Shown piece by piece: positions 14,748 to 60,421 of a stretch of DNA of 64,000 nucleotides. A program made the position numbers and the translations under genes. Within the stretch, counting starts at the first letter, position 1; each line of letters starts with the position of its first letter. The notes under the pieces were generated by a model, which was not told where the DNA came from, did not search any database, and saw only the letters and a list, made by a program, of their open reading frames with translations. The DNA comes from Bryobacterales bacterium. Lineage in GTDB: Bacteria > Acidobacteriota > Terriglobia > Bryobacterales > UBA6623. Where the stretch lies: NCBI GenBank assembly GCA_965248305.1, contig OZ252099.1, positions 3,117,502-3,181,501 on the forward strand. Direction: 5' to 3'.

Positions 14748-14769
14748 TACCGCGTCAGGATTCAGTTAG
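14748..14769. repeat. IS terminal inverted repeat (left)
   Basis: See the IS feature. The transposase stop codon (14762-14764) lies inside this repeat. Confidence 0.85.
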
Positions 14770-16588: not shown

Positions 16589-17244
16589 TCGCCGATCCGG
16601 TGGAGCTCGAAGCGCTCGAACACGGCCTGGACCTGCCCCAGCGGGACGGGCGGGGAGCGAGCCTGCAGGCGACGGGCCACCTGCCCGGGCCGGGAGCCGG
16701 GATGGCGGACCAGCACCAGCAGCACCGCGATGATGATGGCCGGGTCCAGCGTGCCGGCCAGGTCGGCGGCCTGGCGGGCGTCGAGGCGCGTCTGGCGGGC
16801 GCGGCGCTGCCGGTCGGCGGTCGGGGGATCGGCCGAGAAATAGACGTAGACGCCGCCGAGGCGCTCGCGGAGGGCGCGCTGCTGGCGGACGGCGGCGAGC
16901 AGGAAGGGGTACACGGAGACGTGCAGGAGGTCGCGGAGTTCCTGGTCGGTGAAGCCGTCCTCGGATTCGCGGAGCAAGCGCTGGACGGTGGCGGTCAGGG
17001 AGCCATCGCGGGAGAAGTGGACGTCGCCGATGGAGAGCAGGCCGAAGCGGTCGAAGCGGGAAGGGTCGCGGTCGGTGTAGAAGCGGCCGTTGTGGTTATA
17101 GCTGTGTAGGTGGCGGACCTGGCGGAGGTAGCGGAAAGTGGTGCGTGGGGAGGCTTGGCCGAGAGCGGCTTGGAGCTGATCGAGGGTGACGGGGGAGGCG
17201 GAAGCCAGCAGGGGGACGAGCAGGTCGGGGGAGCGCGCGGGCAT
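16564..17244 (-). CDS. IS orfA (putative DNA-binding subunit / N-terminal part of the transposase)
   Basis: 226-aa ORF inside the IS, same strand as orfB. It ends 11-21 nt after the A5G6 tract (16579-16589). No family recognised. Confidence 0.6.
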   Translation of the reverse strand: MPARSPDLLVPLLASASPVTLDQLQAALGQASPRTTFRYLRQVRHLHSYNHNGRFYTDRDPSRFDRFGLLSIGDVHFSRDGSLTATVQRLLRESEDGFTDQELRDLLHVSVYPFLLAAVRQQRALRERLGGVYVYFSADPPTADRQRRARQTRLDARQAADLAGTLDPAIIIAVLLVLVRHPGSRPGQVARRLQARSPPVPLGQVQAVFERFELHRIGEKGGSTAS

Positions 17245-28189: not shown

Positions 28190-28209
28190 GCGAGCGTTGA
28201 GAGGAAACC

Positions 28210-29505
28210 ATGCAAGCCATCTCACAACCTGACATCGAATCGTTGCGGCGGCGCATCAATCGGCACATCGAGCCATCCAGCGGAGCTGCGCTGCGGTCGG
28301 CTCATGTGCAGGTGCGGACGCCGCAGCGTCCGCAGTTAGCCATCGAAGGCGAGGAACAGGTGACATCCCTGGGGCGGTTCCTATTGCAAGGGCACTTCTA
28401 CCCCAACTCGCGATCCCATGGGAGCCTGCCCATCAGTCGCCTGCAGTCCATGCCCGCCCATGCGATTGGCGCCGTCTCCGACGACGATGTACAGTCGAGC
28501 GATCCCAAGCGATGGATCTTCCTGGATACGGAGACGACCGGATTGGCCGGCGGCACCGGCACCTGCGCATTCCTGGTCGGCGTTGGCATGATCGAGGCTG
28601 ACGGCTTTCGGGTACAGCTCTTCTTCATGCGCGACTTTGACGAGGAGCCGGCCATGCTGCAGGCGCTCGCCCAGCATCTGTCCGGCTACGACACCGTCAT
28701 CACTTTCAACGGCAAGGCCTATGATGTGCCCCTGCTTGAGACGCGCTATCGACTCAAGCGCCAGCGAAATCCGTTCGCGCGCATGGGCCACGTAGATCTG
28801 CTGCACCCCGCGCGACGCCTATGGAAGGACCGCCTGCCCGACTGCCGCCTCTCCACTGTGGAATCAGAGGTCCTAGGTGTCGAGCGGCAAGGTGACGTGC
28901 CGGGGGCACTCATCCCGCAGCGTTATTTCGACCATTTGCGCACCGGCGATGCTGCTGGCCTGGGCCCGGTGTTCCACCACAACGTCTTGGACATCGTTTC
29001 TCTCGCCTGCCTCGGCTCAGTCCTGTTGACCTACCTCGACGCTCCGGAAAAGGCGCCGCTGCAACACGGCGAGGACCTGCGCGGCCTCGCCCGCTGGGTG
29101 AGCAAGCTCGGAGACGACATCCAGGCCTTGGAGCTCTATCGCAAGGCCATCCAAGCAGGCCTCCCCGCCAGCGGCCTGTTCCCCGCCCTGTGGGAGAGCG
29201 CGCAGATGGAGCGGCGGGCTGGCCACCACAGCGCCCAGGTTCAGCTACTGCGCGACCTGTCGCGGGTCAGCAACATCTATCGGGCCGCCGCTTTTGTGGA
29301 ACTCGCCAAGCATTACGAGCACCGCGAGAAAGATCTTGAACGCGCGCTGCAAATGACTCGCAGCGCCCAGCGCTACGCGCCATCAGATGAACTGCATCAC
29401 CGTGAGCTCAGGATCCAGCGCAAGATGAAGCTTGCGCCCCAGCCCTCCGATACGGCGGCCGCGGCCGCCAGCGATGGCGGATCAGACTCGCGCGTCGCCA
29501 GCTAG
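28210..29505 (+). CDS. RNase H-fold (DEDD) exonuclease with a helical/TPR-like C-terminal region, MrfB/YprB-like
   Basis: 431 aa with IFLDTETTGLAGGTGTCAFLVGVG (ExoI motif), ITFNGKAYDVPLL and HHNVLDIVSL. It starts 20 nt downstream of the helicase stop. Confidence 0.8.
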   Translation: MQAISQPDIESLRRRINRHIEPSSGAALRSAHVQVRTPQRPQLAIEGEEQVTSLGRFLLQGHFYPNSRSHGSLPISRLQSMPAHAIGAVSDDDVQSSDPKRWIFLDTETTGLAGGTGTCAFLVGVGMIEADGFRVQLFFMRDFDEEPAMLQALAQHLSGYDTVITFNGKAYDVPLLETRYRLKRQRNPFARMGHVDLLHPARRLWKDRLPDCRLSTVESEVLGVERQGDVPGALIPQRYFDHLRTGDAAGLGPVFHHNVLDIVSLACLGSVLLTYLDAPEKAPLQHGEDLRGLARWVSKLGDDIQALELYRKAIQAGLPASGLFPALWESAQMERRAGHHSAQVQLLRDLSRVSNIYRAAAFVELAKHYEHREKDLERALQMTRSAQRYAPSDELHHRELRIQRKMKLAPQPSDTAAAAASDGGSDSRVAS

Positions 29506-40587: not shown

Positions 40588-42831
40588 CTAGGTTGTCGCC
40601 GCCTTGCGCCGGGACCATTTCGGGGCCGGCTGCAGCGAGCGCCGCTGGTACGAGCGGTTGGGACGCGGCTTGCGCCGACCCGTCCCGACCCACGCACAGA
40701 TACGTTCGAGTGTCTCGCCGACATACGCGGAGTGGCGCAACAGCAGACCCTCCAGATGCTGTGCCAGCGCGGCCAGGCTGTGCTTGAAGTTGGCCTGCGG
40801 CGCCGACTTGCCGTCCGGCTGCCGGGCTGCTTGGCACCGCTCCGCGTCCCGGTTGGTGAACGGCCGGGTCATCGCAATCAAGTTGAAATGGGCGAACAAC
40901 TCTTGCTTCACCAGGCGCTCGCTCCGGCCGTGAAACTGCTGGACCTCCAGGAACGATTTGCTTATTTTGTACATCTCTTCAATGCCCCACCGCGCGTGGT
41001 ACAGGTCGGACAGGTCGGCGACGCTGTAGCGGCGGCTGTCGAGCAAGGTGGTGCCCAGCACGTACTTGGTCGTGGCGTGCGTGTACTTGACGAGGCGCAG
41101 CGGGAGGGGCTGCCAGTGCGTGCCGGGATACTTGCGGGACAGGGTCCGCAGGGTATCGGGGCCGGGCAGGATGGTGACGAGCGTGTCGGGGCCGTCGCCG
41201 TCGATGAAGGCATCGATGGCGGGGCAGACGCTACGGGGGAGGCGGAAGACGGCCTGCAGTCGGCGCCGCCGGTGGGTCCAGAGCAGTTCGAACGAGTAGT
41301 AGCCGCGGTCGTAGACGACCAGGTCGGGGGCGGCCAGGGCCTGCAGATGGGCCAGTGCGGCGGCGCGCTCGTTGCGGTGGGGGAAGAGGTCGAAGTCGAC
41401 CGGGAGCCGGGACTGCAGGCGCAGCAGGCAGCTGAGCAGGCCCTGCGGGTAGTGGGCGTGCGGGCCGGGCTGGTCGTAGCCGGCGGCGGCCAGCGGGCGC
41501 GGCAGGTTGAGCTTGGAGCCGTCGACGGCGAAGACGCGGTGGCCCAGCCAGAGCGGCCCGGGCTGGTCGGCGCGCCGCAGGATCTCGGCGTGGAACTGCC
41601 GGAAGACCTGGGCGTCAATCCGCGGCCGGGCCTTGCACATGGCCGCGTCGGAGACCGGCTGCGGTTGCGGCAGGGGCACGTCCAGGGCGCGGCACTGGGC
41701 CCACAGCTGGGACAGCGTCGTGGTGTAGCCCTGGCGGCGCGGGGCGAACACGAGGCGGAACACGAATAGCATCACCAGCAGCGTGTTGAGGACGCGGCTG
41801 CGCACTTGCCAGAGTTTGTCGTGAGCGGCGGCGATGGCGCTGAGAGCGCCGATCAGGCCCTGCCAGAGGGCGACGAAGTCCGCGTCGGGGGCCTGCGGCT
41901 GCGCCGCCGGCGGCGGCCGTCGCCGGGCCTGCGGGCGCGGCCCGTGCAGCAGGATCGAGCGGAACGGCTTCGTCAGCGGGTAGACATACACATCCTTGGG
42001 GCTGCGCCCGGCGTCGGCACGGCCCTGGGTCTGGCCGAGATGGATCCAGTTGGCGGCGCGGTAGCAGGTGCCGTGGAAGCGCGGGGTTTCGCAGAAGGTT
42101 TCGAGCAGCACCGGCCGCGTGCCATAGCGCCGCTGCCAGTCCGTCGGCAGCTGGCGGGCTGCCAGCCCCAGCGCGTGACTCGCCAGGTTCGGGACCTGCA
42201 CCCAAGGAAACAGCAAGAAGCGCGGCTGGCCGACCACGAGGTCGAGGTGCTTCTTGTACTCCCCGGCAGGCCAGCCGACCCACTCATCGCGGCAAGCCAG
42301 CGAGCGGCTCGCCTGGCTGAACAGCACACAGCCCAGCCGGCGCCCGTGCCGGTCGAGCAGGAAGTAGCGCAGGTGCGGGCCCAGCGGCTGGCGGTAGCCG
42401 AGGTAGTGGTGCCGCTCGATGAATTCGTTCCAGAGTTGGGTGTCCTCCTGCTGCTCGACCAGCTGCAGGCACAGCGGCTGCAGGGCCCGCAGGCTGGTCG
42501 CGATCAGCGGCTGGGGAGCGGTGCGCGGGGTCGCGGCCACCGGCTGCCGCGGTCCCGGGCGCAGGTTCTGCGTGTGCTTGGGCGGCAGCGTCAGGATGCC
42601 GGCCTGCTCCAGCTGTTCCAGCAGGCCCAGGGCGGTCGCGACTCGGTTGCCGCCAGCGGCCGTGCGCCAGTTGAGGTGCTCGCAGATCGTCTCCGCCAGT
42701 TCCTGGCGGCTCAGGGCCGGGAACGTGGCCACCGTCTGCTGGATATCGGCGATCTGCCGGCGCGTGAATCGTCTGCCGAAGAAGGTAGTGGACTTGAGCT
42801 TCTCGATGCGGGGGTCCATGACAGCCACCAA
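40588..42831 (-). CDS. Fusion protein: N-terminal DUF4338 (DruA-like) domain + C-terminal IS4-family DDE transposase
   Basis: 747 aa. The N-terminal half has ..WNEFIERHHYLGYRQPLGPHLRYFLLD..GCVLFSQASRSLACRDEWVGW..FLLFPWVQVPNLASHALG..LLETFCETPRFHGTCYRAANW (DUF4338 pattern). The C-terminal half has ..VFAVDGSKLNLP..VVYDRGYYSFEL..DLYHARWGIEEMYKISK (the IS4 Y-x2-R-x3-E-x6-K signature). Confidence 0.8.
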   Translation of the reverse strand: MVAVMDPRIEKLKSTTFFGRRFTRRQIADIQQTVATFPALSRQELAETICEHLNWRTAAGGNRVATALGLLEQLEQAGILTLPPKHTQNLRPGPRQPVAATPRTAPQPLIATSLRALQPLCLQLVEQQEDTQLWNEFIERHHYLGYRQPLGPHLRYFLLDRHGRRLGCVLFSQASRSLACRDEWVGWPAGEYKKHLDLVVGQPRFLLFPWVQVPNLASHALGLAARQLPTDWQRRYGTRPVLLETFCETPRFHGTCYRAANWIHLGQTQGRADAGRSPKDVYVYPLTKPFRSILLHGPRPQARRRPPPAAQPQAPDADFVALWQGLIGALSAIAAAHDKLWQVRSRVLNTLLVMLFVFRLVFAPRRQGYTTTLSQLWAQCRALDVPLPQPQPVSDAAMCKARPRIDAQVFRQFHAEILRRADQPGPLWLGHRVFAVDGSKLNLPRPLAAAGYDQPGPHAHYPQGLLSCLLRLQSRLPVDFDLFPHRNERAAALAHLQALAAPDLVVYDRGYYSFELLWTHRRRRLQAVFRLPRSVCPAIDAFIDGDGPDTLVTILPGPDTLRTLSRKYPGTHWQPLPLRLVKYTHATTKYVLGTTLLDSRRYSVADLSDLYHARWGIEEMYKISKSFLEVQQFHGRSERLVKQELFAHFNLIAMTRPFTNRDAERCQAARQPDGKSAPQANFKHSLAALAQHLEGLLLRHSAYVGETLERICAWVGTGRRKPRPNRSYQRRSLQPAPKWSRRKAATT

Positions 42832-48330: not shown

Positions 48331-48421
48331 AACAAGCAGGGCGGAAACCTTCTTAGCGACCCAGCAGGTGCAGGACCTGACCGGCCAAGGCTGGCCACCA
48401 GCCGGAACCGAGTGTTGCGTG

Positions 48422-49085
48422 GTGCGGGGGCGACCCCGGCTGCGAAGCGTACACAGGGAGCCTGTAGGCCGTGTGATTGAGCCTCGAAAGCCCAGACGCG
48501 GAGCCGACGTAGTTATATATGCGGAAGGCAACATCGCGCGCATCGGAGTGGCCGGATGCGAGCGGTCCGCCGGGGTCGAAGAGCAGGGCATGCAGGCAAG
48601 GGTCGCCCAGGAACTTGGGAGACCTCCCCGTCTCCACCGTAAGCAGGCGGCCTGGGCGCCGCGGTAGAAGTGGCCCAGGCCCCGGAGCAGCGCCCCGGCT
48701 CCGGGGAGCGAACGGGGCAACCGGTGGTACCGCCGAGCGAAGGCAACGAAGCGAGGCGGGACGGGCGGGGAGGGGTCGGAGTCCGCTGATAGTACCGGGG
48801 AAGTCGGGGAACCCACCAGGGGACCCGGCGGAGGGAAGCGGCGGATCGGGCTGTGGGGCTTTGCGAGGGACAGATGGCGAGGACATCGAGCCGAGAAGTC
48901 ATCTCAACACGACAAGCGAAGCTAGCGAACTTGGCCTTTCTGGGCCAGCGGGTGCGCGACGGGGTGAATTCACCGCCGCGCAGCGACTCCATAGCTCGAG
49001 GAGCCGGATGCTCGAATTGGGCAAGTCCGGATCTGTGGGAGCCACGGGCGGGTAACTGCCCGTGGCCACCCGGCCAATCCTAACC
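48422..49085 (+). mobile_element. Probable 5' fragment of a group II intron (ribozyme domains I-III/IV plus a decayed start of the intron-encoded RT)
   Basis: It starts with GTGCG (48422-48426). About 450 nt of GC-rich, non-coding-looking sequence follows. Then comes an ORF start MARTSSREVISTRQAKLANLA.., resembling the ..STKQQRIAELA.. N-terminus of bacterial intron RTs. A frameshifted ..FTAAQRL...[10 protein letters not shown] (cf. FTSLAHL...RKDAAxGVDG) follows. No RT body or domains V/VI are present. Confidence 0.4.
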
Positions 49086-49467: not shown

Positions 49468-50430
49468 TCATAGCGCCATTTCCCGCGCCCCGGAATCCAG
49501 ACCGTTCGCCCGCTTCAGATCCTGGTACCGCAGGCGCTTGCCGCTCATCCGCAGCATGCTGTGTTCCATCTGCTCCAAGGTGTCCGCCATGCGCACATTG
49601 TGCCGTCCCGAGAATTCGTTCACGTAGCGTTGCAGGTGCTTCGGGGACATCTTGTGGTACGTCCCCACATAGCCGCGCTTGAGCATGCTCCAGAACGACT
49701 CCACGCCATTGGTGTGGGCCTTGCCGCGCACATACTCGCTGACCGAGTGCTTGACGGCCGCATGCTCGAACGGCAGCGTCTCGTCGGCACCGGCCTCGTC
49801 GGTATAGACCGTCGCGTGCGGGTCCGCGGAGTCCTTGACGAAGCCTTGCAGCGTTTCCTTGTCGGTGCCCTCAACGGCCTTCGCCACGACCCGATTCGTC
49901 GCGCGATCCTTGGCCCCCACAACCGCCGTCTTGCCGACCGGACCCCGCCCCGTCAGGTCCTTGCGGACATGCTTCGGCATGTTCTTGCGCTTGCCGCCCA
50001 GGTAGGTCTCGTCCACCTCGACGGGTCCGCCAAACAGCCCCTCGCCCCGCTCCCAGGTCTCGCGGATGCGATGCGCCAGGTGCCAAGCCGATTTCTGCGT
50101 GATGTCCAGGTCCCGGTGCAGCTTCATGCTGGAGTCTCCCTTCAGATTCGTTGTCAGCATGTAAGCCGCGAGCACCCATTTCTGCGCGCCGAGGTTCGAG
50201 TTCTGCATGACGGTGCCGGTGCGCACCGAGAAGAACTTGCGGCACTTCCGGCAGCGATAGCTCATGTTCGGATGCTGCGCCCCGCACTGGACGTTCGTGG
50301 ATTCGCAATGCGGGCAGGTCGCCCCGTTCGGCCAGCGAATCGAGGCAATCCAATCCTCCGCGGACTTATCGTCTGGGAATAGCCGGATCAGCTGAACGAT
50401 GGAAATGCCCTTGCGGCGGGCCTTGCCCGG
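49468..50430 (-). CDS. IS1595-family (ISXO2-like) transposase; the N-terminal zinc-ribbon region lies upstream of the first canonical start
   Basis: Track ORF 49468-50265 has ..VEVDETYLGGKRK..AVVGAKDR..VYTDEAGADE..HTNGVESFWSMLKRGY..H.. (IS1595 DDE). The same frame is open to ~50440 and encodes ..KGISIVQLIRLFPDDKSAEDWIASIRWPNGATCPHCESTNVQCG.., the normal N-terminus of this family. That stretch contains no ATG/GTG/TTG. Confidence 0.75.
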   Translation of the reverse strand, partial: PGKARRKGISIVQLIRLFPDDKSAEDWIASIRWPNGATCPHCESTNVQCGAQHPNMSYRCRKCRKFFSVRTGTVMQNSNLGAQKWVLAAYMLTTNLKGDSSMKLHRDLDITQKSAWHLAHRIRETWERGEGLFGGPVEVDETYLGGKRKNMPKHVRKDLTGRGPVGKTAVVGAKDRATNRVVAKAVEGTDKETLQGFVKDSADPHATVYTDEAGADETLPFEHAAVKHSVSEYVRGKAHTNGVESFWSMLKRGYVGTYHKMSPKHLQRYVNEFSGRHNVRMADTLEQMEHSMLRMSGKRLRYQDLKRANGLDSGAREMAL

Positions 50431-51155: not shown

Positions 51156-52637
51156 CTAGTCCACTGACGACGGCTCGATCGCTCGGTCGTAGCGCAGTTC
51201 TCCGCCTTGAAGGCGCAGCAGCTTCGGCGCTCGGGAGCCCGTCCGAAACCTTGCAGGAACTTGGGCATCGATCCGGTCGAAGATCGCCTTGAGACGCTGG
51301 ACAGTATCGGGATGGTCTGAAGCGACATCGCGCTGTTCGGACCAGTCCGCTTCCATGTCGAACAGCATCAGCGGCTTGGGTGCCGGACCGGTTTGGACTC
51401 CCGGGCACTGCGTGGGATCGGCCTGCTCGAATTGCGCGATGATCGTGACGCCGTCCGGACCGCGCGGGTCCTTCCAACCGCTCGCGTCCTCCAGGCAGCG
51501 GAAGCCAGGCTGGGGAGAGCGGACGTGCAGCTTCCAACGCCCGGACCGGATCAGCTTCAGCTCCGTCCCACCCATAGCGTAGACGGCTTCGTGCGGTGAG
51601 GCTTCGGCGCTGCCCTCCAAGAGGGTCAAGATGTTCTTCCCGTCGATCACCCGGTCGGTTGGCAGGTGCGCGCCTGCCGCGCGAACGATTGTCGGGAAAA
51701 CGTCAATTGACCCCAGCACTGCCCCCGACACCAGGCCCGGTGGAATCCGGCCGGGCCATCGCGCGATCGCCGGCACGCGGACACCGCCATCAAAATTGGA
51801 CGCTTTCATGGCCCGCAGGCCGCCGTTGTCGCCGCCGAAAGTCGCACCGTTGTCAGACGTGAAGAAGACGAGAGTGTCCTCCTCGAGGCCGCTCGCGCGC
51901 AATTCGGACAAGACCTGTCCCACCGACCAGTCCAATTCCCGGATGACATCGCTATACAGGTCGCTCGGCGTCTCCGGGGTATAGAAGTCATCCGAGGCGG
52001 CGAGCGGCTTGTGCGGCATCGCGTGAGGGATATACAGGAAGAACGGCTGGTCCCGGTGCCGTCTGATGAAATCGATGGCCCTGCGAGTGTAATCGCGGGT
52101 CAGCTCCGATTGCAGGACCGGGTACTGCACTACAGTTTCGTTCTCAACCAGTTGGACTGGTCTCATATCGTTGGAGTAGAGAATGCCGTAGTACTCGTCA
52201 AAGCCCTGCGTGCGCGGCAGGTATTCTTCGACATGGCCGAGGTGCCACTTCCCGATCGCAGCGGTAGCGTATCCCAAGGGCTTCAAGGCTTCGGCGATCG
52301 TGATCTCCGACTGGGGCAGGCCGACGTCGTTTCGTCCGGCATCTGGTGAGGGGTTTACGACCAATCCATTGCGAAAGGGATAGCGGCCAGTCAACAGGGT
52401 GGCTCTGGAGGGGCCGCAGAATGGCACCGGCACGTAGAAATCGGTGAGGCGGATGCCGTCGGCGGCCATGCGGTCGAGGTGCGGGGTGCGGTGCGCGAGA
52501 GCGCCGTAGGAGGACAGGTCTCCGTAGCCCAAATCGTCGGCAAGGATCAGCACGAAGTTCGGAGGCCGCTGCGCATGGAGAGGCATCCAGAGTAGAGACG
52601 CGAGCGCAATTGGTAACAACGGCAAGCAGCGCAACAT
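51156..52637 (-). CDS. Formylglycine-dependent sulfatase (arylsulfatase A family)
   Basis: The track ORF 51156-53264 is over-extended. ATG at 52637 gives MLRCLPLLPIALASLLWMPLHAQRPPNFVLILADDLGYGDLSSYG...FCGPSRATLLTGRYP (C-x-P-x-R), 493 aa. Confidence 0.9.
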   Translation of the reverse strand: MLRCLPLLPIALASLLWMPLHAQRPPNFVLILADDLGYGDLSSYGALAHRTPHLDRMAADGIRLTDFYVPVPFCGPSRATLLTGRYPFRNGLVVNPSPDAGRNDVGLPQSEITIAEALKPLGYATAAIGKWHLGHVEEYLPRTQGFDEYYGILYSNDMRPVQLVENETVVQYPVLQSELTRDYTRRAIDFIRRHRDQPFFLYIPHAMPHKPLAASDDFYTPETPSDLYSDVIRELDWSVGQVLSELRASGLEEDTLVFFTSDNGATFGGDNGGLRAMKASNFDGGVRVPAIARWPGRIPPGLVSGAVLGSIDVFPTIVRAAGAHLPTDRVIDGKNILTLLEGSAEASPHEAVYAMGGTELKLIRSGRWKLHVRSPQPGFRCLEDASGWKDPRGPDGVTIIAQFEQADPTQCPGVQTGPAPKPLMLFDMEADWSEQRDVASDHPDTVQRLKAIFDRIDAQVPARFRTGSRAPKLLRLQGGELRYDRAIEPSSVD

Positions 52638-52792
52638 GATGGTCAAGAGTGTATTACAGCGAGGCCGCCCTTCCCAAATGTACGGGTGGCCGCAGTTTGG
52701 CGCGGTACCGTAGCATGCGATTAGCGCCCGAGAACGAGCAGTTCGGCTGAGGACAGCTCCGGTCCACCTCCACGTCCCTCGCTTCCAACGGC

Positions 52793-53790
52793 TTAGTAGA
52801 TCTCGGCATCCAACACAGCAGCTCCGCCGCCGTGCCTTCCTTGATTCAGCGGGGCGATCAGCCTCCATTCGCCAGTGGCCAGGTCGAAGGCTTGAGTTTC
52901 GGAATGCGCCAGCTTCTGCGCGGCTTTGCCGCCGAAATAGTAAATCGAACCGTCCAAGCCGACAAGACCGCCGTCGCCACGGGCAACCTGGACGGCATTG
53001 TCGTCCACTGCCCGCTCTGGAAATCGTAGACGTCGACCTTGCGAATGGCTGTCTTGAAAAAGGCCGTGAAGTCGCCCGGCTCGTGGTAGCTTGTGTCACG
53101 GCCACCCACCAGATAGAGCCGACCACCGCTGACAACCGCTGAGAAATGATCCAGGACCCGCGGAGCGTCCGGCAGGTGGCGCCACTTCCCAGTCTCCGGG
53201 ACCAAGTCGTCAAATCAGGCGATAGTGCCACTGGTGTGTCCGTCGACGATGCCGCAAACCACATAGATCTTGCCTTCGTGCGTCACTGTGCCCGCGCCGC
53301 CTCGCCTGCGCTCGGAAGGGAATGCCGGGCCTTGCCGCCAGGTATCGCTATCGGCGTCGTAGATGTAAACGGTCCCCAGTGGCATCTGGACGAGCACAAA
53401 CCGGGCACGGCTTGGTCTGCAACTTCGATGATCGGGGATGCGCTGGAGAGGTCCGCCCGGGTGCAACAGCGGTGGTGGGAAGGTGGGTCCCTGGCCGGGC
53501 CGAAGCGATCTAACGAGGTGTAGTCGGTCGTCTGCATGGGGCAGTTCCGGACCGCTGCCGGGCAGTGGCACTGTCCGGTGACGGTTGTGGACAGGTACAG
53601 CCGATATGCTGCTTGCCTGTGCTGATCACAGGCTGCCTAGTCGGTAGGAACCCCGGACGAGTTTCGAGCAACTGTGCGGGGGGCTCTTCTGCAGACAGCG
53701 AGGGCGCCATTCAGGACGGTACGAAACCCGTCAACGGTCCCACGGGTGGGCAGGCTGGCCAAGGTTTGCTTGCGGGTGTGCTTGCTCACC
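52793..53790 (-). pseudogene. Kelch-repeat protein gene with a nonsense mutation and frameshift(s)
   Basis: Kelch blades are spread over broken frames. ..GTVYIYDADSDTWRQGPAFPSERRRGGAGTVTHEGKIYVVCG..TIA is followed by an in-frame TGA (53215-53217). Then comes FDDLVPETGKWRHLPDAPRVLDHFSAVVSGGRLYLVGG..VDVYDFQSGQWTTMPSRLPVA. A frameshift near 52975-52990 leads into RGDGGLVGLDGSIYYFGG..FDLATGEWRLIAPL... The 5' boundary is approximate. Confidence 0.7.
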
Positions 53791-53992
53791 TGCTGATTTA
53801 CAGTCTAGTGACTATTCCTTAATGAACATCTTTACTGCGCCTGAGGACTGGACTCAGCCCAATCCGTGACAGCCACGCAACACCGAGGAGCGTGTCCTCG
53901 CATGGGTGGGACCATGGCGGGAAAATCACTTGGTACCCTGAGGATCTGCGGCAGAGCTACCCTGTAGCACTACTGGCGGTCGATTTCAAACT

Positions 53993-55180
53993 GTGTCCTC
54001 GCTGTCCTGGATAGATTTCGATGAGAACGAGCGTCAGCGGGTGCGCGGAATTATCGCCCTGTTTGAAGAGAAGGAGGCGCGGGATGAACTCGGCCTAGGA
54101 CCAATCCGTGACTCCATTGCCGACCATTTGTTTCCTGGCACGAGCACAATCCAGACACGCTTACGTTACATGTTCTTCGTTCCCTGGATTTATATGATGG
54201 TCGAGAAGATCGACACCCAGCCCCACAAACTTGTGGAGAAAGCGAGAAGCCTGGAGATCAGCCTGATCGATAGCCTCCGAAGCGGTGGTGAAAAGGAAGG
54301 TGTTATCGGCCGAACCGCAGGCACCAGCCTGAAGCGCCTACCAAGTTCGGTCTACTGGAACGGTCTCAAGAGTTGGGGCATTCGCCTTTTCCCAGGTTCA
54401 CAAGAAGCCTACTTCGCCTCACTGCCCAGCTTGCGTCGGCATCGACACCGTTCTACGTCGGCGGACGATTCCTCAGCGACCGACAGTTTCGATAAGAATC
54501 TTTGGAGTCCGAGTCTAATGGGGCCACCACCAGACTTACTGGAGCGGACAGACTTCGGCCTGACGCACGACGAAGCCGGCTTCCTGATCGACCGCTTGGT
54601 CAACTCACAGCCGGACAGCCTCCTTACACACCTCGCTAGATCTCCCCGCCAAGTCGAGTGCGAATTCGTTTGGACTCACCCCGACTTCTCTGCGTTCCCT
54701 CCAACAGCAAAGGGGCTGGTCGAGCACGCTCAGGTTTTCTCCGCCGTGCTGCATGGTGCCTCCCTGCTCTACAACCTGATGCTGGCAGAATGCCACAAGA
54801 ACGAGGACTGGATCGAGCGATACCGATCTGAACTCTACCAATGGAAAACCGACGAATTCCAACAGACGGCTATTTCCGACTGGTCCTTGCACGACTTTTG
54901 GGACTGTATCGCGCATCAGAACCATCGAGTCCAAGACCGAGCTCGAGCGTTCGTAGAGCGGTGGTGCGAACTCGCACATGAGAAGAGTGGCGACGTAGCC
55001 GATCTCGAATCAGCGCGGGAGCTGGTGCGGGAACGCGAGAAATCACTCAAGCGTACGCAATCTCGTTTCGTCAATCACGCAGTCCTCGCTAGGTGGGGAG
55101 GCCGCTCGGGTGCAGACCGCCTGAACTTTCGCTGGCGCGAAGCCAACAGCCACATCCGGGATTTAGCCAATGCCCTCTGA
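53993..55180 (+). CDS. Hypothetical protein, first gene of the three-gene operon (no assignable domain)
   Basis: 395 aa with a GTG start (the first start-like codon after the in-frame TGA at 53939-53941). Composition is protein-like. A conserved-looking N-terminal block is present: DELGLGPIRDSIADHLFPGTSTIQTRLRYMFFVPWIY. The stop overlaps the next ATG by 11 nt. Confidence 0.75.
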   Translation: MSSLSWIDFDENERQRVRGIIALFEEKEARDELGLGPIRDSIADHLFPGTSTIQTRLRYMFFVPWIYMMVEKIDTQPHKLVEKARSLEISLIDSLRSGGEKEGVIGRTAGTSLKRLPSSVYWNGLKSWGIRLFPGSQEAYFASLPSLRRHRHRSTSADDSSATDSFDKNLWSPSLMGPPPDLLERTDFGLTHDEAGFLIDRLVNSQPDSLLTHLARSPRQVECEFVWTHPDFSAFPPTAKGLVEHAQVFSAVLHGASLLYNLMLAECHKNEDWIERYRSELYQWKTDEFQQTAISDWSLHDFWDCIAHQNHRVQDRARAFVERWCELAHEKSGDVADLESARELVREREKSLKRTQSRFVNHAVLARWGGRSGADRLNFRWREANSHIRDLANAL

Positions 55181-57044
55181 CCTGCCGCTGCACCCCGATG
55201 TCCGCGATCTATATGCTGCCAGCCTCCGCCCACCTCCCGGATTCGTTTTTGACGCAGGTGTCGCAACCACCTTCTCGCTCGATCTCGAGACTGCACTCGC
55301 CGTGCCGGTCGCGCTGGCGCTATTCTCCTCCGAGAATACGGAGGAGCTGCTTAAGAGCCCCCTCGCTCTGCTGGAGGGGCTGGAGCGGACCGCCGAGCGG
55401 CTAGCGATTTTCTGCGAGGGAGGCCGGATCCAAGCTCAGCCTGCGCCGCAGTCTAGGCTCTGCACTCTGCTTGAGCGCCTCATCACCGAAGTGGCCGCCC
55501 CGCGAGGGGGCTCGTTCCATCCGAAGCTCTGGGCGCTGCGCTACCGTCCCCGAGAGGCGGGAAAACTGGTCCGGATGCGTCTGCTCGTCCTATCGCGAAA
55601 CCTTACGCGCGACCGATCCTGGGACATCTCGCTCTGCTTGGATGGCGAGATAGGGCGCAGAATGCGCACAGTCAATTGGCCGCTTGTCAATCTCCTCCAA
55701 GCCATTCCCTCAATGGCCCGGGGTGCTCCTCCGCCGAAGCATCTGCCCGAACTCTTGGCAGGGCTGACGGAAGACTTGCACCGCACGGTTTGGGAATTGC
55801 CGGACCCGTTCGAGAAAATTTCCTTTGCCGTGAATGGCATCGGGCGTAGCCCGTGGAAACCCCAACGCTGTTATCGCCTGGGCATCGTCTCACCGTTTTG
55901 TGACACCGCGGCCCTAGAGACGCTCGCCGACCTAGCCGACCAGCCTTCTCGGCTCATCGGTAGATCCGAGGAATTGGTGGCCGTCGCTCGTGAAGTGCTT
56001 GATCGCTTCGAGGGAGTATTCGTCATGGACGAACTCGCGGAGACGGAAGCTGGCGAGACCGACGACAGTGGCAACGGGACTTCCCCTTACCTCACCGGCC
56101 TTCATGCCAAGGCCTTCGTGCAGGAGATCGGCTGGAACACCGCCATCACAATTGGCTCCGGAAATGCGACCCGGCCAGGACTCGTTACGCGCCGCAACGT
56201 CGAAGTCTTCGCAACGCTGACCGGGAAACGATCCAAGGTCGGTAGCGTCGACAAGATCTTTGGACCGGATGGCTTCGGGCGCGTGCTACGTCCATTCCGG
56301 CAAGCCGAAATCAGTCCCATTGACCAAGACATCCTGAACGCGGAGCGAAGGGTCGAGGACGCTCGGCGCGAGCTAGCTCAAGCCGACTTGGCGCTCAGCT
56401 GCACGGCGGTGACCGACGAACAAGAAGGGCAGAGGCTCTGGAGAGTGACACTTTCGTCCAACCGTGCGCTGAAACTCGAAGGGCTTGCAACGGCAGCCTG
56501 CTGGCCTGTTACTCGGGGTGAGGCCCATGCACGTGAACTCTTGACACCGCTGCGTCAGGGAGACCCGGTGGAGATCGGCACCTTGCCTCTGGGCGACGTG
56601 ACGAGATTCCTCGCCTTCCGCCTTACCGATTCCCTACACAGGAAGGCGACCGCCCTCTTTGCATTGGGCTTCAGAATCGAAGGGCTGCCAACAAACCGAC
56701 ACCAGGCCGTGTTGAGGCACGTATTGGACAGCAGAGAAGCATTTCTTCGCTATCTGCGCTTGTTGCTCGCAGATCTAGCCGATCCGTTGTCCGCGCAATT
56801 CGCTTCTGCTCCGACAGATGGTGCCGGAAACTGGCGTGCGGCGGCTGATGACGAGCCGATTCTAGAGGACATGGTGCGGGCACTGTCGCATGGTCGCGAC
56901 CGCCTAGATTCAGTGCGCCGCCTGATGGAACGTCTTGAACAGGTGCCCGGTGACGGGGATGTAGCGCTCGTTCCGGAGGACTTCAGGGAGTTGTGGGACG
57001 CATTCCGCATGGTTCTAGACGAGCAAGGTCAGACCAATGCCTGA
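55170..57044 (+). CDS. Phospholipase D-superfamily (two-HKD) putative nuclease
   Basis: 624 aa. The first motif is GGSFH117PK119LWAL..LVLS142RN144LT. The second is TGLH312AK314AFVQEIGWNTAITIGS330GN332AT, i.e. H-x-K..(G)S-x-N twice. His codons were checked at 55518-55520 and 56103-56105. Confidence 0.85.
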   Translation: MPSDLPLHPDVRDLYAASLRPPPGFVFDAGVATTFSLDLETALAVPVALALFSSENTEELLKSPLALLEGLERTAERLAIFCEGGRIQAQPAPQSRLCTLLERLITEVAAPRGGSFHPKLWALRYRPREAGKLVRMRLLVLSRNLTRDRSWDISLCLDGEIGRRMRTVNWPLVNLLQAIPSMARGAPPPKHLPELLAGLTEDLHRTVWELPDPFEKISFAVNGIGRSPWKPQRCYRLGIVSPFCDTAALETLADLADQPSRLIGRSEELVAVAREVLDRFEGVFVMDELAETEAGETDDSGNGTSPYLTGLHAKAFVQEIGWNTAITIGSGNATRPGLVTRRNVEVFATLTGKRSKVGSVDKIFGPDGFGRVLRPFRQAEISPIDQDILNAERRVEDARRELAQADLALSCTAVTDEQEGQRLWRVTLSSNRALKLEGLATAACWPVTRGEAHARELLTPLRQGDPVEIGTLPLGDVTRFLAFRLTDSLHRKATALFALGFRIEGLPTNRHQAVLRHVLDSREAFLRYLRLLLADLADPLSAQFASAPTDGAGNWRAAADDEPILEDMVRALSHGRDRLDSVRRLMERLEQVPGDGDVALVPEDFRELWDAFRMVLDEQGQTNA

Positions 57045-60000
57045 GACCAAACCGTTCAGCGCGGGCGAGGCACTCCAACCGCTGAAGACCTTCCAGCGAC
57101 GGACCGTCGACTATGTGATGCGCCGCCTCTATGAAGACGCCGACAACACGAGACGCTTTCTGGTCGCCGACGAGGTCGGTCTCGGCAAGACCATGGTCGC
57201 GCGCGGCGTAATCGCCCGCACGATCGAACGGCTCTGGAGCACGGTCGAACGCATCGACATCCTCTACATCTGCTCGAACCAAGCGATCGCCACCCAGAAC
57301 ATCAACCGGCTGAACGTACTCGGCAAGCAAGCGTTTGCCCTGCCAACCCGGATGACGCTCCTTCCGTTACAGCTGACCGGCGAGCATCGCCTCGGCGGCA
57401 ACAGAGTCAATTTCATCAGCCTGACACCAGGAACCACGTTCAATCTACGGTCATCTACCGGAGTTATCCAAGAGCGGGCTTTCCTGTTCCATCTCCTAAA
57501 GGACCTAGTTGAGCCACAGCAAGGCCTCTACAACCTGCTCCAAGTCGGTGCCGGCGCCCGGAATTGGAAGCAGACCATCGATCACATGCCATTCGACCAA
57601 GTTGACCAGAAACTGGTCGCAGACTTTCGATCCGGATGCATCGATCCTGATCTGATCAACGACCTGAGCGAACTCTGCCACCTCTTCCGCATATGGAATG
57701 ACCGATATCCCTACGAGATCGCGAGGCGTCGCAATGAGATAGTCGGCAAGCTACGGAACAGTCTTGCTCACCTTTGTGTTGATGCGCTCGAGCCGGACCT
57801 GATCATCCTCGACGAGTTCCAGCGCTTTACCGAGTTACTCCACGGGGATCACGGCGCCGCGATATTGGCTCGAGCGCTGTTCGACTACACCGACAGCGAG
57901 GGCAACCGGGCACGCACATTGCTGCTCTCGGCAACACCGTACCGAATGCTGACCCTTTCCAGCGACGGGGACAACGAGGGAAGTCACTACGAGGAATTCT
58001 TTGAAACCCTCGAATTCCTCCTCGGCAGCAATCGAGCAAGGGAGGTAGCCGGGGAGTTAAGGCAGGAAATCACTCAATTCCGTCGTGCGATATTGTCCTT
58101 CCCTGAGGCGAAAGAGGAAGCTCGCAATTATCGAGCATCGATCGAGCGCCAGTTGAGGTCTGTGGTGGTCCGCACTGAGCGAGTCTCTGGCACTGTGGAC
58201 CGCAATGCCATGGTCGATGAACCGTCTGTGGCCGTTAGTGTTGATGCGGCAGATCTGCGCTCGGCGGCAGCAGTCGCTTCGGTCGCCCGCATCGTGGAAG
58301 CGCCCGAAATCGTCGAGTACTGGAAGTCGGCGCCCTATCTACTCAACTTCATGCGCGACTACGCCCTGAAGCGGGCGCTGAGGGCGGAAGCCGAGAAGCA
58401 GTCTTCGGCAGCACTGCTTGAAGCAATCAAGGCGGCGCGGCCATCTTGCCTGAGCCGACGGCGTATCGGAGCCTATCGTCCGCTAGCGCCGACAAACGGA
58501 CGGATGCGGTCTCTGATGAACGACATCTTTGACGACAACTTGGACCAGCACCTGTGGATCCCGCCATCGCTGCCCTACTATGGCGGGGGGAATTCAAACG
58601 CAGCTAGCCCGAGCAAGACTCTGGTGTTTTCGTCATGGTCCATGGTGCCCGACGCGATAGCGGCCATCCTCTCCTACGAGGCGGAACGCCGGATGGGAGT
58701 AAAGCAAGCCGGCATGGGCTACTTCGACCGCCAGCGCCCGCGACCCCTTCAATTTCGGTGGGCGCAGGGCCGCCTAGCCGGCCTCCGGGCATTGCTTCTG
58801 ATCTACCCTTCTCCTTTGCTGGCAAAGGTGGCAGACCCACTTGACGTCGTTGCGGCTCATAATGAGCCGCTTTCCTACAGCGAGATGTGTGCCGCGTTGG
58901 CCAAGCGGCTGCAACCGTATCTGCACAAGCTACAGGCTGCCACTGACCCAGCCGCAGAGGTTGAGACTTGGGAATGGGCCGGCCCAGCTGTGCTGGACGG
59001 GCTCGCCAACAACCGCGCAGGGCTTTGGCTGGAGGGGGTTGATGGCTTCATGAATTCCGGTGATGAGGACGCATGGCCCAATCACGTTGAAGCATTGCGG
59101 AAAGCGGTCCGGGAGAAGCGCGTCGATGGTGAAGTACCAGACGATGCGCTGGAACTGCTAGTCGAACTAGCGCTTGGGAGCCCCGCAACCTGTGCGCTAC
59201 GGGCATTGCATCGCATCGCTCCGGAACTCGCCTGGGACAATCCGGACTTGCTCACGGCAGCAACACGCATCGCCTGGGGCTTCCGAACTCTCTACAACCA
59301 CCACGATACGGTAGCGCTGCTGCGGCGCGACAGCGGAGACCGGTACTGGCACAGCGTGATCACCCAAGCCGCGCGGGACAACCTGCAATCTGTCCTCGAC
59401 GAATATGTTCACTGCCTGATCGAATCCGAGGGATTGACCGACGCAGAGCCGTCGTATCGTGCGACTAAGCTCTCCAAGGTGATCAGTCAAGCGCTGTCTC
59501 TTCATCCTTCGCAGATCGAGGTAGACGATCCGCAGGTCCGCGCTGGTCGACTCAAGATCAAGAGATTCACCATGCGTGGCCGCTTCGCTATGCGGCTCGC
59601 GGATTACCGCGACCAAGAGGGGGCGGCAGCCCGCCTCAGCGGTGTACGAGAGGCATTCAACTCGCCCTTCCGGCCGTTTGTGCTGGCAACCACGTCAATT
59701 GGGCAGGAAGGGCTTGACTTCCATCCCTACTGCCATCGCCTCCATCACTGGAACCTGCCAAACAATCCGGTCGATCTGGAACAGCGCGAGGGACGGGTCC
59801 ATCGCTACAAGGGCCATGCGATTCGCCTGAACATCGCGCACGAGCACGCAGCGGCCATACGAGGTTGCGGCGCGGCACCAGCGGATCCTTGGGCCGCGAT
59901 GTTCTGTGCGGCTCAAAGCGCGTCTGGCGTAACAACCGGCCTCATCCCCTACTGGATCTATGACGGTCCGGTCAAGGTAGAGCGCCGCGTGCCGCTCCTG

Positions 60001-60180
60001 CCCTACAGCAGGGAAGTCACTCGCTTGAAGTGGCTCAAGAAAAGTGTCGCCGTCTATCGTCTGGCCTTTGGTCAACCGCGCCAAGATGACCTGCTCGCCT
60101 ACCTCCGAGACTTGGACAGGGAGTTGACCACCGAGGATCTCGAAGCGCTTCAGATCCGCCTTGAACCGCCGTTGGACTGA
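57037..60180 (+). CDS. SF2 (SNF2/DEAD-like) helicase-family ATPase with a ~350-aa insertion in the C-terminal RecA-like domain
   Basis: 1047 aa. Motif I is ADEVGLGKT (44-52), motif II is LIILDEFQ (255-262) and motif III is SAT (298-300). TLVFSSW lies at 528-534. Motif V-like is LATTSIGQEGLDF (883-895) and motif VI is QREGRVHRY (916-924). The start overlaps the PLD gene stop by 8 nt. Confidence 0.85.
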   Translation: MPETKPFSAGEALQPLKTFQRRTVDYVMRRLYEDADNTRRFLVADEVGLGKTMVARGVIARTIERLWSTVERIDILYICSNQAIATQNINRLNVLGKQAFALPTRMTLLPLQLTGEHRLGGNRVNFISLTPGTTFNLRSSTGVIQERAFLFHLLKDLVEPQQGLYNLLQVGAGARNWKQTIDHMPFDQVDQKLVADFRSGCIDPDLINDLSELCHLFRIWNDRYPYEIARRRNEIVGKLRNSLAHLCVDALEPDLIILDEFQRFTELLHGDHGAAILARALFDYTDSEGNRARTLLLSATPYRMLTLSSDGDNEGSHYEEFFETLEFLLGSNRAREVAGELRQEITQFRRAILSFPEAKEEARNYRASIERQLRSVVVRTERVSGTVDRNAMVDEPSVAVSVDAADLRSAAAVASVARIVEAPEIVEYWKSAPYLLNFMRDYALKRALRAEAEKQSSAALLEAIKAARPSCLSRRRIGAYRPLAPTNGRMRSLMNDIFDDNLDQHLWIPPSLPYYGGGNSNAASPSKTLVFSSWSMVPDAIAAILSYEAERRMGVKQAGMGYFDRQRPRPLQFRWAQGRLAGLRALLLIYPSPLLAKVADPLDVVAAHNEPLSYSEMCAALAKRLQPYLHKLQAATDPAAEVETWEWAGPAVLDGLANNRAGLWLEGVDGFMNSGDEDAWPNHVEALRKAVREKRVDGEVPDDALELLVELALGSPATCALRALHRIAPELAWDNPDLLTAATRIAWGFRTLYNHHDTVALLRRDSGDRYWHSVITQAARDNLQSVLDEYVHCLIESEGLTDAEPSYRATKLSKVISQALSLHPSQIEVDDPQVRAGRLKIKRFTMRGRFAMRLADYRDQEGAAARLSGVREAFNSPFRPFVLATTSIGQEGLDFHPYCHRLHHWNLPNNPVDLEQREGRVHRYKGHAIRLNIAHEHAAAIRGCGAAPADPWAAMFCAAQSASGVTTGLIPYWIYDGPVKVERRVPLLPYSREVTRLKWLKKSVAVYRLAFGQPRQDDLLAYLRDLDRELTTEDLEALQIRLEPPLD

Positions 60181-60421
60181 GCGAAGACCACTCGCTCGGC
60201 ACATCACAGCCACGAGCGATGGCGATTTCGCTTGCTTCCTCGAATTCTGATGCAAGTCGCCGATGGTGTAGCTCCCAACAAGCCAACACCCAGACAGCGA
60301 TGCTCAAGGGAGGTGGAAAAGTATGTGATCATGACGCGGTCAACCTGTTTGAAGGCAGTATCGAGTGGCGCTGGCTGTTCTTGTCTGTACTCCCCAGCGA
60401 TTCCTGTTGCCCACCGGAACA

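What the first reader, a model, noticed from the sequence alone, without database searches (positions are those of the whole stretch)
53993..60180. Overlap-coupled three-gene operon (orphan protein + two-HKD PLD nuclease + large SF2 helicase): candidate undescribed defence/DNA-surveillance system
Three same-strand genes (395, 624 and 1047 aa) overlap by 11 nt and 8 nt, so they are almost certainly one translationally coupled unit. Gene B carries two complete H-x-K...S-x-N motifs. That is the catalytic signature of PLD-superfamily phosphodiesterases, used as nucleases in Nuc/BfiI and in defence systems such as DISARM DrmC and Mokosh MkoB. Gene C has the SF2 ATPase motifs I, II (DEFQ), III, V and VI. 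Gene A has no motif I can assign. A nuclease plus translocase plus unknown specificity/sensor protein is the logic of many anti-phage systems. However, the gene content does not match DISARM (no DrmA/DrmB, no methylase), Druantia, Mokosh (different helicase type, extra gene), Hachiman, Zorya, Gabija or the Dpd restriction module as I know them. No methyltransferase or other modification gene occurs anywhere in the 64 kb. Context fits an accessory locus. A multiply broken Kelch gene lies directly upstream and an ~8-kb graveyard of IS/intron/recombinase debris lies a little further (46.3-50.5 kb). A 420-bp untranslated leader/promoter region precedes gene A, and a convergent gene ends the unit. 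My spot counts of single 60-nt lines gave 48-60% GC inside the operon versus 58% and 68% in the two flanking genes. That is only a hint.
Basis: partly seen in the sequence, partly recalled or inferred. Interest (0 to 1): 0.9.

Follow-up and report, generated by a model that had tools for sequence, protein, structure and literature searches.

The report
Azaca (ZacABC) anti-phage defence operon
The three overlapping genes are real and intact, but they are an ordinary copy of Azaca, a bacterial anti-phage defence system named in 2022 and shown in other bacteria to cut phage T4 DNA, so this is not a new kind of system.

Summary
Three + strand ORFs of 395, 624 and 1047 aa sit at 53993-60180 and overlap by 11 and 8 nt. 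All three proteins match the PADLOC Azaca models ZacA, ZacB and ZacC end to end and in order (E = 1.6e-135, 3.6e-169 and 0). Gene A is Pfam DUF6361. The same triad, with the same sizes and overlaps, recurs in a Gammaproteobacteria MAG, Bradyrhizobium, Halomonas and Cronobacter, often next to defence or mobile genes, and on 48 plasmids. A 2025 preprint reports that the ZacABC complex degrades T4 DNA and needs all three subunits, the nuclease site and the ZacC Walker A motif. New here: a ZacB model confirms a Tdp1-like two-lobed PLD fold that Pfam misses, and a confident all-helical ZacA model has no PDB structural match. The operon is slightly GC-poor, sits alone among housekeeping genes and IS debris in a probable PVC-group bacterium, and is interrupted by a group II intron in one related population. 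Already known; low interest.

The parts
53572..53992 (+). Intergenic region upstream of zacA, the presumed promoter/leader. It is not conserved in other Azaca loci.
   Evidence: No called gene lies here in the identical metagenome contigs. No sigma-70-like site was found. GC is 0.58. In Bradyrhizobium and Cronobacter zacA follows the preceding gene within 15-95 bp.
53993..55180 (+). zacA: DUF6361 protein of 395 aa, the obligatory third subunit, biochemical role unknown.
   Evidence: PADLOC ZacA E = 1.6e-135, residues 2-395 against profile 3-394/396. Pfam PF19888, 299 bits against a cutoff of 25. The AF2 model is all-alpha, pLDDT 80.9, pTM 0.78, with no PDB fold match, best E = 1.4.
55170..57044 (+). 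zacB: PLD-superfamily nuclease of 624 aa. Two HKN-type lobes span about residues 20-380, followed by a beta-rich domain (about 405-505) and a helical tail.
   Evidence: PADLOC ZacB E = 3.6e-169. No Pfam hit even at E <= 10. The AF2 model has pLDDT 76 and pTM 0.76. The significant Foldseek hits are all PLD superfamily: Tdp1 at 2e-6, PS synthase, PLD1/2, SauUSI at 2.8e-4, with BfiI and NgoAVII weaker.
55518..55601 (+). ZacB catalytic motif 1: H117-P-K119 ... S142-R-N144.
   Evidence: all invariant in 36 homologues.
56103..56165 (+). ZacB catalytic motif 2: H312-A-K314 ... S330-G-N332.
   Evidence: all invariant in 36 homologues.
57037..60180 (+). zacC: SF2 (SNF2/DrmD-like) ATPase/helicase of 1047 aa, with a roughly 550-aa insert between the two RecA-like lobes.
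   Evidence: PADLOC ZacC, 1110.5 bits, residues 9-1044 against profile 6-1016/1019. Pfam DEAD at 34-136 and Helicase_C at 872-924. Only sub-threshold partial hits to DrmD, DpdE and RapA.
57178..57192 (+). ZacC motif I / Walker A: G48-L-G-K51-T52.
   Evidence: invariant. The Walker A motif is required for T4 DNA cleavage in BmZacC.
57811..57822 (+). ZacC motif II / Walker B: D259-E-F-Q262.
   Evidence: invariant.
59782..59805 (+). ZacC motif VI: Q916-REGRVH-R923.
   Evidence: invariant.
59452..59453 (-). Site in zacC, after codon 805, where a 925-bp ORF-less group II intron is inserted antisense in a near-identical contig from another sample (L003). The insertion is absent from this window.
   Evidence: Rfam RF02003 scores 60.7 bits and RF00029 scores 44.8 bits, both on the - strand.
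60363..60380 (+). Weak terminator-like hairpin in the gap between zacC and the convergent gene.
   Evidence: Fewer such sites were found than expected by chance, so this is weak evidence.

Best explanation
The locus is a complete and apparently intact Azaca (ZacA-ZacB-ZacC) anti-phage defence operon, horizontally acquired and sitting alone in the chromosome of an uncultured, probably PVC-superphylum bacterium. Likely mechanism: the three proteins are made from one translationally coupled mRNA and assemble into a ZacABC complex. ZacC, an SNF2-like SF2 ATPase, uses ATP to engage or translocate on DNA and licenses cleavage. ZacB, a single-chain two-lobed PLD-fold phosphodiesterase with HKN-type motifs like Tdp1, cuts dsDNA, presumably through a phosphohistidine intermediate as in other PLD enzymes. 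ZacA, an all-helical DUF6361 protein, is an obligatory structural or specificity subunit. No methylase is present, so self is most probably spared because the target carries a feature that host DNA lacks. In the tested homologues that target is glucosyl-hydroxymethylcytosine T4 DNA. The system therefore behaves like an ATP-dependent, modification-dependent (type IV-like) restriction enzyme split over three polypeptides. Shown here: gene identity, order, intact catalytic residues, the PLD fold, conserved synteny and mobility. Shown elsewhere for BmAzaca/KpAzaca: more than 1e6-fold protection against T4, a preference for T4 DNA, and a requirement for all three subunits, the PLD site and the Walker A motif. 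Inferred: that this copy is expressed and active, what it recognises in its own host's phages, the role of ZacA, and the phosphohistidine chemistry.
For: Full-length, very strong matches to PADLOC ZacA, ZacB and ZacC in the canonical order, and DUF6361 in Pfam. The catalytic H/K/N residues of ZacB and motifs I, II, III, V and VI of ZacC are present and invariant among homologues. The ZacB model gives only PLD-superfamily structures as significant hits, including the ATP-dependent type IV enzyme SauUSI. The triad recurs with the same sizes and overlaps in a Gammaproteobacteria MAG at 67-71% identity. It also recurs in Bradyrhizobium next to BrxR, PD-(D/E)XK + UvrD and an SMC-like ATPase, in Halomonas next to HsdM, AAA_15/21 ATPases and AlpA/RepB genes, and on a Cronobacter IncFIB plasmid after a tyrosine recombinase. 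ZacA homologues occur on 48 plasmids, 16 of them conjugative. The operon's GC and GC3 are below those of the host genes. No methyltransferase was found in the window. Biochemistry and phage assays of BmAzaca and KpAzaca are in bioRxiv 10.1101/2025.07.10.664194.
Against: Nothing contradicts membership. The caveats are these. I ran the PADLOC HMMs, not the PADLOC or DefenseFinder programs with their system rules. Activity of this copy is untested, and no promoter-like site was found upstream, although the sigma-70 consensus may not apply to this host. The experimentally tested systems come from other bacteria, and their identity to this copy could not be measured. The modification-dependence idea rests on one preprint's preference for T4 DNA, which its authors offer only as a possible cue. 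In that preprint, mutating conserved ZacA residues did not affect cleavage, so ZacA's role is open. This window is not a defence island: the other PADLOC hits are an MrfA-like repair helicase and the DnaG primase.
Confidence: 0.92

Rival explanations
1. A previously undescribed defence or DNA-surveillance system.
For: Pfam and NCBIfam give no name to gene B and only generic helicase domains to gene C. The gene content does not match DISARM, Mokosh or Dpd.
Against: All three proteins match the named Azaca models end to end. Gene A is DUF6361 with more than 3,700 homologues. Azaca is in the literature and has been tested experimentally.
Confidence: 0.02
2. A housekeeping DNA-repair module. On this view the Tdp1-like PLD phosphodiesterase and its helicase remove protein-DNA adducts or process damaged DNA ends rather than restricting phage.
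For: The closest structural neighbours of ZacB are tyrosyl-DNA phosphodiesterases, and ZbcB-type motifs are not involved: ZacB simply shares their HKN (no Asp) motif type. In this window the locus lies among housekeeping genes, not in a defence island.
Against: The distribution is patchy and mobile: plasmids, defence-island neighbours, and cross-phylum similarity of 67-71% to a gammaproteobacterial MAG. The composition is atypical for the host. A near-identical population carries zacC broken by an intron, so the gene is dispensable. Homologous operons give more than 1e6-fold protection against T4 and degrade T4 DNA. Identity to Tdp1 is only 9-13%.
Confidence: 0.03
3. It is Azaca, but the trigger is not a DNA base modification. 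The complex might instead sense DNA ends, replication or recombination intermediates, or a phage protein, as Hachiman senses genome integrity, and then degrade DNA indiscriminately in an abortive-infection-like manner.
For: The reported BmAzaca cut-site motif is highly degenerate (5' A|NT). Neither ZacA nor ZacB shows a recognisable modified-base reader fold such as SRA, EVE or YTH among the Foldseek hits. The preprint's authors call glc-HMC only a possible cue. Other helicase-nuclease systems work this way (Hachiman, PMC12278908, listed).
Against: Purified BmAzaca preferred T4 dsDNA over the other DNAs tested in vitro, with no phage proteins present, and protection is narrow and centred on T-even phages. 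Both observations point to a feature of the DNA itself.
Confidence: 0.2
4. The copy in this genome is a decaying, non-functional remnant.
For: It is surrounded by IS elements, a group II intron fragment and broken Kelch genes. One related population has zacC disrupted. No promoter-like site was detected.
Against: All three ORFs are full length relative to the profiles and every invariant family residue is kept. The coupled overlaps are preserved. The proteins are identical or differ by a single residue in contigs from three other samples.
Confidence: 0.07

Closest known systems
Azaca (ZacA/ZacB/ZacC), Millman et al. 2022; BmAzaca and KpAzaca in bioRxiv 10.1101/2025.07.10.664194
   Same: The same three families in the same order, with full-length profile matches. 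The architecture is DUF6361 + PLD nuclease + SF2 helicase, with no methylase, and the catalytic residues are intact.
   Different: Nothing categorical. This copy is in an uncultured, probably PVC-group bacterium and lies outside a defence island. Its sequence distance from the tested operons was not measured. Its natural phage targets are unknown.
SauUSI-type ATP-dependent type IV restriction endonucleases
   Same: A PLD-fold nuclease combined with an SF2 helicase motor, with ATP-dependent cleavage of modified foreign DNA and no cognate methylase. The ZacB model matches the SauUSI PLD domain (7clg, E = 2.8e-4).
   Different: SauUSI is a single polypeptide with its own target-recognition domain. 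Azaca is split into three proteins, has a two-lobed single-chain PLD rather than a dimerising single lobe, and needs the unrelated ZacA. The two share no detectable sequence homology.
Tyrosyl-DNA phosphodiesterase 1 (Tdp1)
   Same: It is the best structural match to ZacB (5nwa, E = 2e-6). Both are monomeric two-lobed PLD folds with HKN-type motifs that lack the conserved Asp.
   Different: Identity is 9-13%. Tdp1 is a stand-alone eukaryotic repair enzyme. ZacB has an extra roughly 220-residue C-terminal region and works only with ZacA and ZacC.
DISARM (DrmC PLD, DrmD/DrmA helicases) and Mokosh (PLD-containing MkoB/MkoC)
   Same: These are defence systems that pair a PLD-family nuclease with a helicase. 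ZacC shares the C-terminal SNF2-type helicase motifs with DrmD.
   Different: There is no DrmA, DrmB, DrmC or methylase, and ZacB hits no Mko or Drm model. The ZacC hits to DrmD and DpdE are short and far below threshold, at 53.6 bits against 610 and 41.2 against 500.

Membership tests
Azaca | ZacA: DUF6361 protein of about 390-400 aa | tested here: met
   PADLOC PDLC03828 E = 1.6e-135, covering 2-395 of 395. Pfam PF19888, 299 bits against a cutoff of 25.
Azaca | ZacB: PLD-family nuclease of about 600-620 aa with two HxK motifs | tested here: met
   PADLOC PDLC03829 E = 3.6e-169, covering 7-619. H117/K119/N144 and H312/K314/N332 are invariant. The PLD fold is confirmed by the model and Foldseek.
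Azaca | ZacC: SF2 helicase of about 1040 aa with Walker A and B motifs | tested here: met
   PADLOC PDLC03830, 1110.5 bits, covering 9-1044. The motifs are present and invariant.
Azaca | All three genes adjacent, on the same strand, in the order zacA-zacB-zacC | tested here: met
   Overlaps of 11 and 8 nt. The same arrangement is seen in four other taxa.
Azaca | System call by the PADLOC or DefenseFinder program rules | not testable with these tools
   Only the PADLOC HMM library could be searched. To my knowledge the rule requires the three core genes together, which is satisfied here.
Azaca | Protects against phage, and the ZacABC complex cleaves phage DNA | not testable with these tools
   Shown for BmAzaca and KpAzaca only.
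DISARM | DrmA (DUF1998 helicase) + DrmB (DUF3780) + DrmC, plus a methylase or DrmD/DrmE | tested here: not met
   No DrmB, DrmC or methylase hits. ZacC gives only a roughly 55-residue hit to DrmD, at 53.6 bits against a cutoff of 610. No methyltransferase was found in the window.
Mokosh | MkoA/MkoB (type I) or MkoC (type II) proteins | tested here: not met
   No Mko model is hit by any of the three proteins at E <= 0.01.
Dpd (7-deazaguanine) restriction module | DpdE and other Dpd helicases at equivalog score, with dpdA/B/C modification genes | tested here: not met
   DpdE scores 41.2 bits against a cutoff of 500. No Dpd modification genes were found in the window.
SauUSI-like type IV restriction enzyme | A single polypeptide carrying PLD, SF2 helicase and target-recognition domains | tested here: not met
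   The functions are split over three ORFs. There is no sequence match to any PDB chain, SauUSI included. Only the PLD domain is structurally similar.

The most novel reading that the evidence does not exclude
ZacA (DUF6361), whose confident all-helical model has no counterpart among solved structures, could be a new kind of specificity subunit. It might read a DNA hypermodification, or another invader feature, and gate the ZacB/ZacC nuclease motor. The branch found here, in a PVC-type host, might then recognise a different cue from the glucosyl-HMC DNA preferred by the tested homologues.
Probability: 0.12. Interest if true: 0.45.

Novelty: already known. Interest (0 to 1): 0.12.

Why it matters
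The locus adds one more instance of a catalogued defence system, so it matters little on its own. There are three modest points of value. First, ZacB is invisible to Pfam and NCBIfam and is recognised only by defence-specific profiles or by its fold, which explains why a motif-based reader thought the triad was new. Second, Azaca's recognition step and the role of ZacA remain unresolved, and no structure is deposited, so the observation that ZacA has no known fold and ZacB is Tdp1-like may help whoever works on the mechanism. Third, the intron-disrupted zacC in a sister population is a natural example of defence-gene loss.

Tried and rejected
1. A sequence search of ZacA, ZacB and ZacC against all PDB chains found nothing meaningful. 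The ZacA hits to FcpA and PKC at E >= 0.002 are short helical matches that I treat as chance.
2. Foldseek of the ZacA model against the PDB gave no match below E = 1.4, so I infer no function from its fold.
3. Pfam on ZacB at E <= 10 found no PLD family.
4. I tested the defence-island idea for this window. The PADLOC hits on other ORFs (BrxHI, SngC, DruE, DrmA, DpdF/J, RT_UG29) all come from two housekeeping proteins: an MrfA/Hrq1-type helicase with an MZB domain, next to an MrfB-like exonuclease, and the DnaG primase. I rejected them as defence genes.
5. I tested the composite-transposon idea. The IS1595 copies on either side of the locus share no detectable DNA similarity, and the window has no internal repeats at blastn E <= 1e-10.
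6. The pattern-based scan of species-representative genomes found only one relative. That scan finds close relatives only, and the protein search showed the family is large.
7. The promoter scan found nothing and the terminator scan only a weak site.
8. I ran no further search on fixing the host's taxonomy. The PVC-type CxxCH protein gives a sufficient hint.

Full report
**Observation.** The window holds three + strand ORFs at 53993-55180 (395 aa, GTG start), 55170-57044 (624 aa) and 57037-60180 (1047 aa). An in-frame stop at 53939 rules out a longer gene A. Gene B carries H117-x-K119...S-R-N144 and H312-x-K314...S-G-N332. Gene C carries GLGKT (K51), DEFQ (259-262), SAT (298-300), motif V, and QREGRVHR (916-923). 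The operon's GC is 0.597 against 0.632 for the rest of the window, which puts it in the lowest 1% of equally long windows. Its GC3 is 0.65-0.69, below all the housekeeping genes I measured (0.71-0.78).

**Identity.** Against the PADLOC profile library, gene A matches ZacA (E = 1.6e-135, residues 2-395 on profile 3-394 of 396). Gene B matches ZacB (E = 3.6e-169, 7-619 on 2-584 of 586). Gene C matches ZacC (1110.5 bits, 9-1044 on 6-1016 of 1019). These are the three components of Azaca, attributed to Millman et al. 2022 in PMC10952713. Pfam names gene A DUF6361 (299 bits against a cutoff of 25). It finds only DEAD and Helicase_C in gene C and nothing in gene B, even at E <= 10. NCBIfam gives only short, far sub-threshold hits of gene C to DrmD, DpdE and RapA. 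That gap in the general libraries probably explains why a motif-based reading found no named match. The programs themselves could not be run.

**Conservation and mobility.**
- ZacA has more than 3,700 homologues and ZacB at least 771 in the large protein collection. Sources name them "DUF6361 family protein" and "phospholipase D family protein".
- The triad recurs with the same gene sizes and small overlaps in a Gammaproteobacteria MAG, at 67, 68 and 71% identity.
- It recurs on a Bradyrhizobium 221-kb plasmid beside a BrxR-type WYL regulator, a PD-(D/E)XK + UvrD pair and an SMC-like ATPase.
- It recurs in Halomonas daqiaonensis beside a type I methylase subunit, AAA_15/21 ATPases and AlpA/RepB-type mobile-element genes.
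- It recurs on a Cronobacter IncFIB plasmid directly after a tyrosine recombinase, annotated [quoted passage not shown].
- ZacA homologues lie on 48 plasmids, 16 of them conjugative, including one from the archaeon Halomarina. Phage records hold only a partial N-terminal match.
- All catalytic residues of ZacB and all helicase motifs of ZacC are invariant across these relatives.

**Structure.**
- No Azaca protein has a sequence relative among solved structures.
- A ZacB model (pLDDT 76, pTM 0.76) matches only PLD-superfamily structures at significant E-values. Tdp1 is best (E = 2e-6). Phosphatidylserine synthase, PLD1 and the PLD domain of the ATP-dependent type IV enzyme SauUSI (2.8e-4) follow. 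PLD2, BfiI and NgoAVII are weaker, at about 2e-3.
- ZacB is therefore a single-chain, two-lobed PLD phosphodiesterase of the HKN type, with no motif aspartate, as in Tdp1. It is followed by a beta-rich domain (about 405-505) and a helical tail, neither of which I could assign.
- A ZacA model (pLDDT 80.9, pTM 0.78) is all-helical and has no structural match (best E = 1.4).

**Mechanism.** The preprint 10.1101/2025.07.10.664194 reports the following:
- Azaca gives more than 1e6-fold protection against T4, and BmAzaca and KpAzaca both protect against T4.
- Purified BmAzaca prefers T4 dsDNA.
- Only the complete ZacABC complex cleaves.
- Mutations in the nuclease site and the ZacC Walker A motif abolish cleavage.
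- Mutating conserved ZacA residues does not abolish cleavage.
- The cut-site preference is degenerate (5' A|NT).
- The authors suggest glucosyl-hydroxymethylcytosine as a possible cue.

These results, the absence of any methyltransferase in the ORFs I scanned and the SauUSI-like domain logic lead to my best reading. Azaca most likely acts as an ATP-dependent, modification-dependent restriction complex split over three polypeptides. That this particular copy is expressed and active, and what it recognises, are inferences. The main mechanistic rival is that Azaca senses a DNA structure or a phage factor rather than a base modification. I give that rival about 0.2.

**Context.**
- Identical ZacA and near-identical ZacB and ZacC (at most one residue different) occur on long contigs from several metagenome assemblies, with the same neighbours.
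- The window is not a defence island. The other PADLOC hits come from an MrfA-like repair helicase, whose neighbour is an MrfB-like exonuclease, and from DnaG.
- Upstream lie Kelch fragments, a sulfatase, an IS1595 transposase and a group II intron fragment. Further upstream lie an IS4 transposase fused to a DruA-type domain, another IS1595 and a YhgA-like transposase.
- The convergent downstream gene is a PVC-type heme-binding CxxCH protein (TIGR02604, 300 bits against a cutoff of 122). That points to a Planctomycetota/Verrucomicrobiota-type host (inference).
- Together with the 67-71% identity to a gammaproteobacterial copy and the lower GC3, this fits horizontal acquisition.
- In one related assembly (L003), zacC is split after codon 805 by a 925-bp ORF-less group II intron inserted antisense, a natural knockout.

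**Verdict.** The feature is real and correctly described. Its general logic (nuclease + motor + unknown subunit, for defence) was correctly inferred. It is, however, a standard member of the already named and experimentally studied Azaca system. Novelty: already known. Interest: low. The residual interest lies in Azaca's unsolved recognition step and in ZacA's fold, which has no known counterpart.

Noticed in passing
L003:15461-16385 (corresponds to window 59452/59453, inside zacC): In a near-identical contig from another sample (ERZ26694896), zacC is interrupted after codon 805 by a 925-bp ORF-less group II intron on the opposite strand. Rfam RF02003 scores 60.7 bits and RF00029 scores 44.8 bits. 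The ends read GTGCG...CTAC on the - strand. Because it is antisense it cannot splice out of the zacC mRNA, so this is a natural knockout. It shares no blastn similarity with the intron fragment in the window.
   Followed up: yes
window 48370-48585 (+): A group II intron D1-D4 domain (RF02005, 143.6 bits) with no domain V/VI hit at gathering score and no reverse-transcriptase ORF nearby. The ORFs here have no Pfam hit. It looks like an intron fragment or an ORF-less intron within the IS-rich stretch.
   Followed up: partly
window 40588-42831 (-): A 747-aa ORF fuses a DruA-type domain (PF14236, E = 1e-37) to an IS4-family DDE transposase (NF033592). Its GC is 0.70 and its GC3 is 0.91, far above the window average. 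It gave no PADLOC hit, so it is a transposase with a DruA-like N-terminal domain and not a Druantia system.
   Followed up: partly
window 25799-29505 (+): An MrfA/Hrq1-type DEAD-box helicase with an MZB zinc domain is followed by an RNase_H_2-fold exonuclease with TPR repeats, which resembles an MrfAB repair pair. The helicase gives strong but partial hits to many defence helicase profiles (BrxHI 2.7e-50, SngC, DruE, DrmA, DpdF/J). This is a likely source of false defence calls.
   Followed up: partly
window 14762-17244: A very GC-rich stretch (0.74 over 15-17 kb, against about 0.63) has long overlapping ORFs on both strands (14948-16843 +, 14762-16402 -, 16564-17244 -). None of them has a Pfam hit. 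The coding strand and the nature of this region are unresolved.
   Followed up: no
window 51156-53571 (-): The mechanical 702-aa ORF overstates the sulfatase. Gene callers on the identical contigs give 476-493 aa.
   Followed up: partly
L001/L003:5476-6273 vs L002:5475-6470 (window 49468-50265): The IS1595 transposase upstream is 265 aa in this window and in two assemblies, where it lacks the Zn-ribbon. In a third assembly it is 331 aa with the Zn-ribbon. The IS-rich stretch therefore varies between closely related populations. Another IS1595 gene lies just past the window's end (L001:20651 onward) but shows no DNA similarity to this one.
   Followed up: partly
phage record MT835621.1:13075-13470: An unannotated human-gut phage contig encodes a stretch 36% identical to the highly conserved N-terminal 130 residues of ZacA (E = 7e-21). 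It may be a phage-borne DUF6361 N-domain, possibly a decoy, or part of a phage-carried system.
   Followed up: no
window 55170-57044 (zacB): The ZacB family has no Pfam or NCBIfam model at all, although it is a large PLD-fold family with at least 771 homologues. General annotation pipelines label it only by similarity, as "phospholipase D family protein" or "hypothetical".
   Followed up: yes
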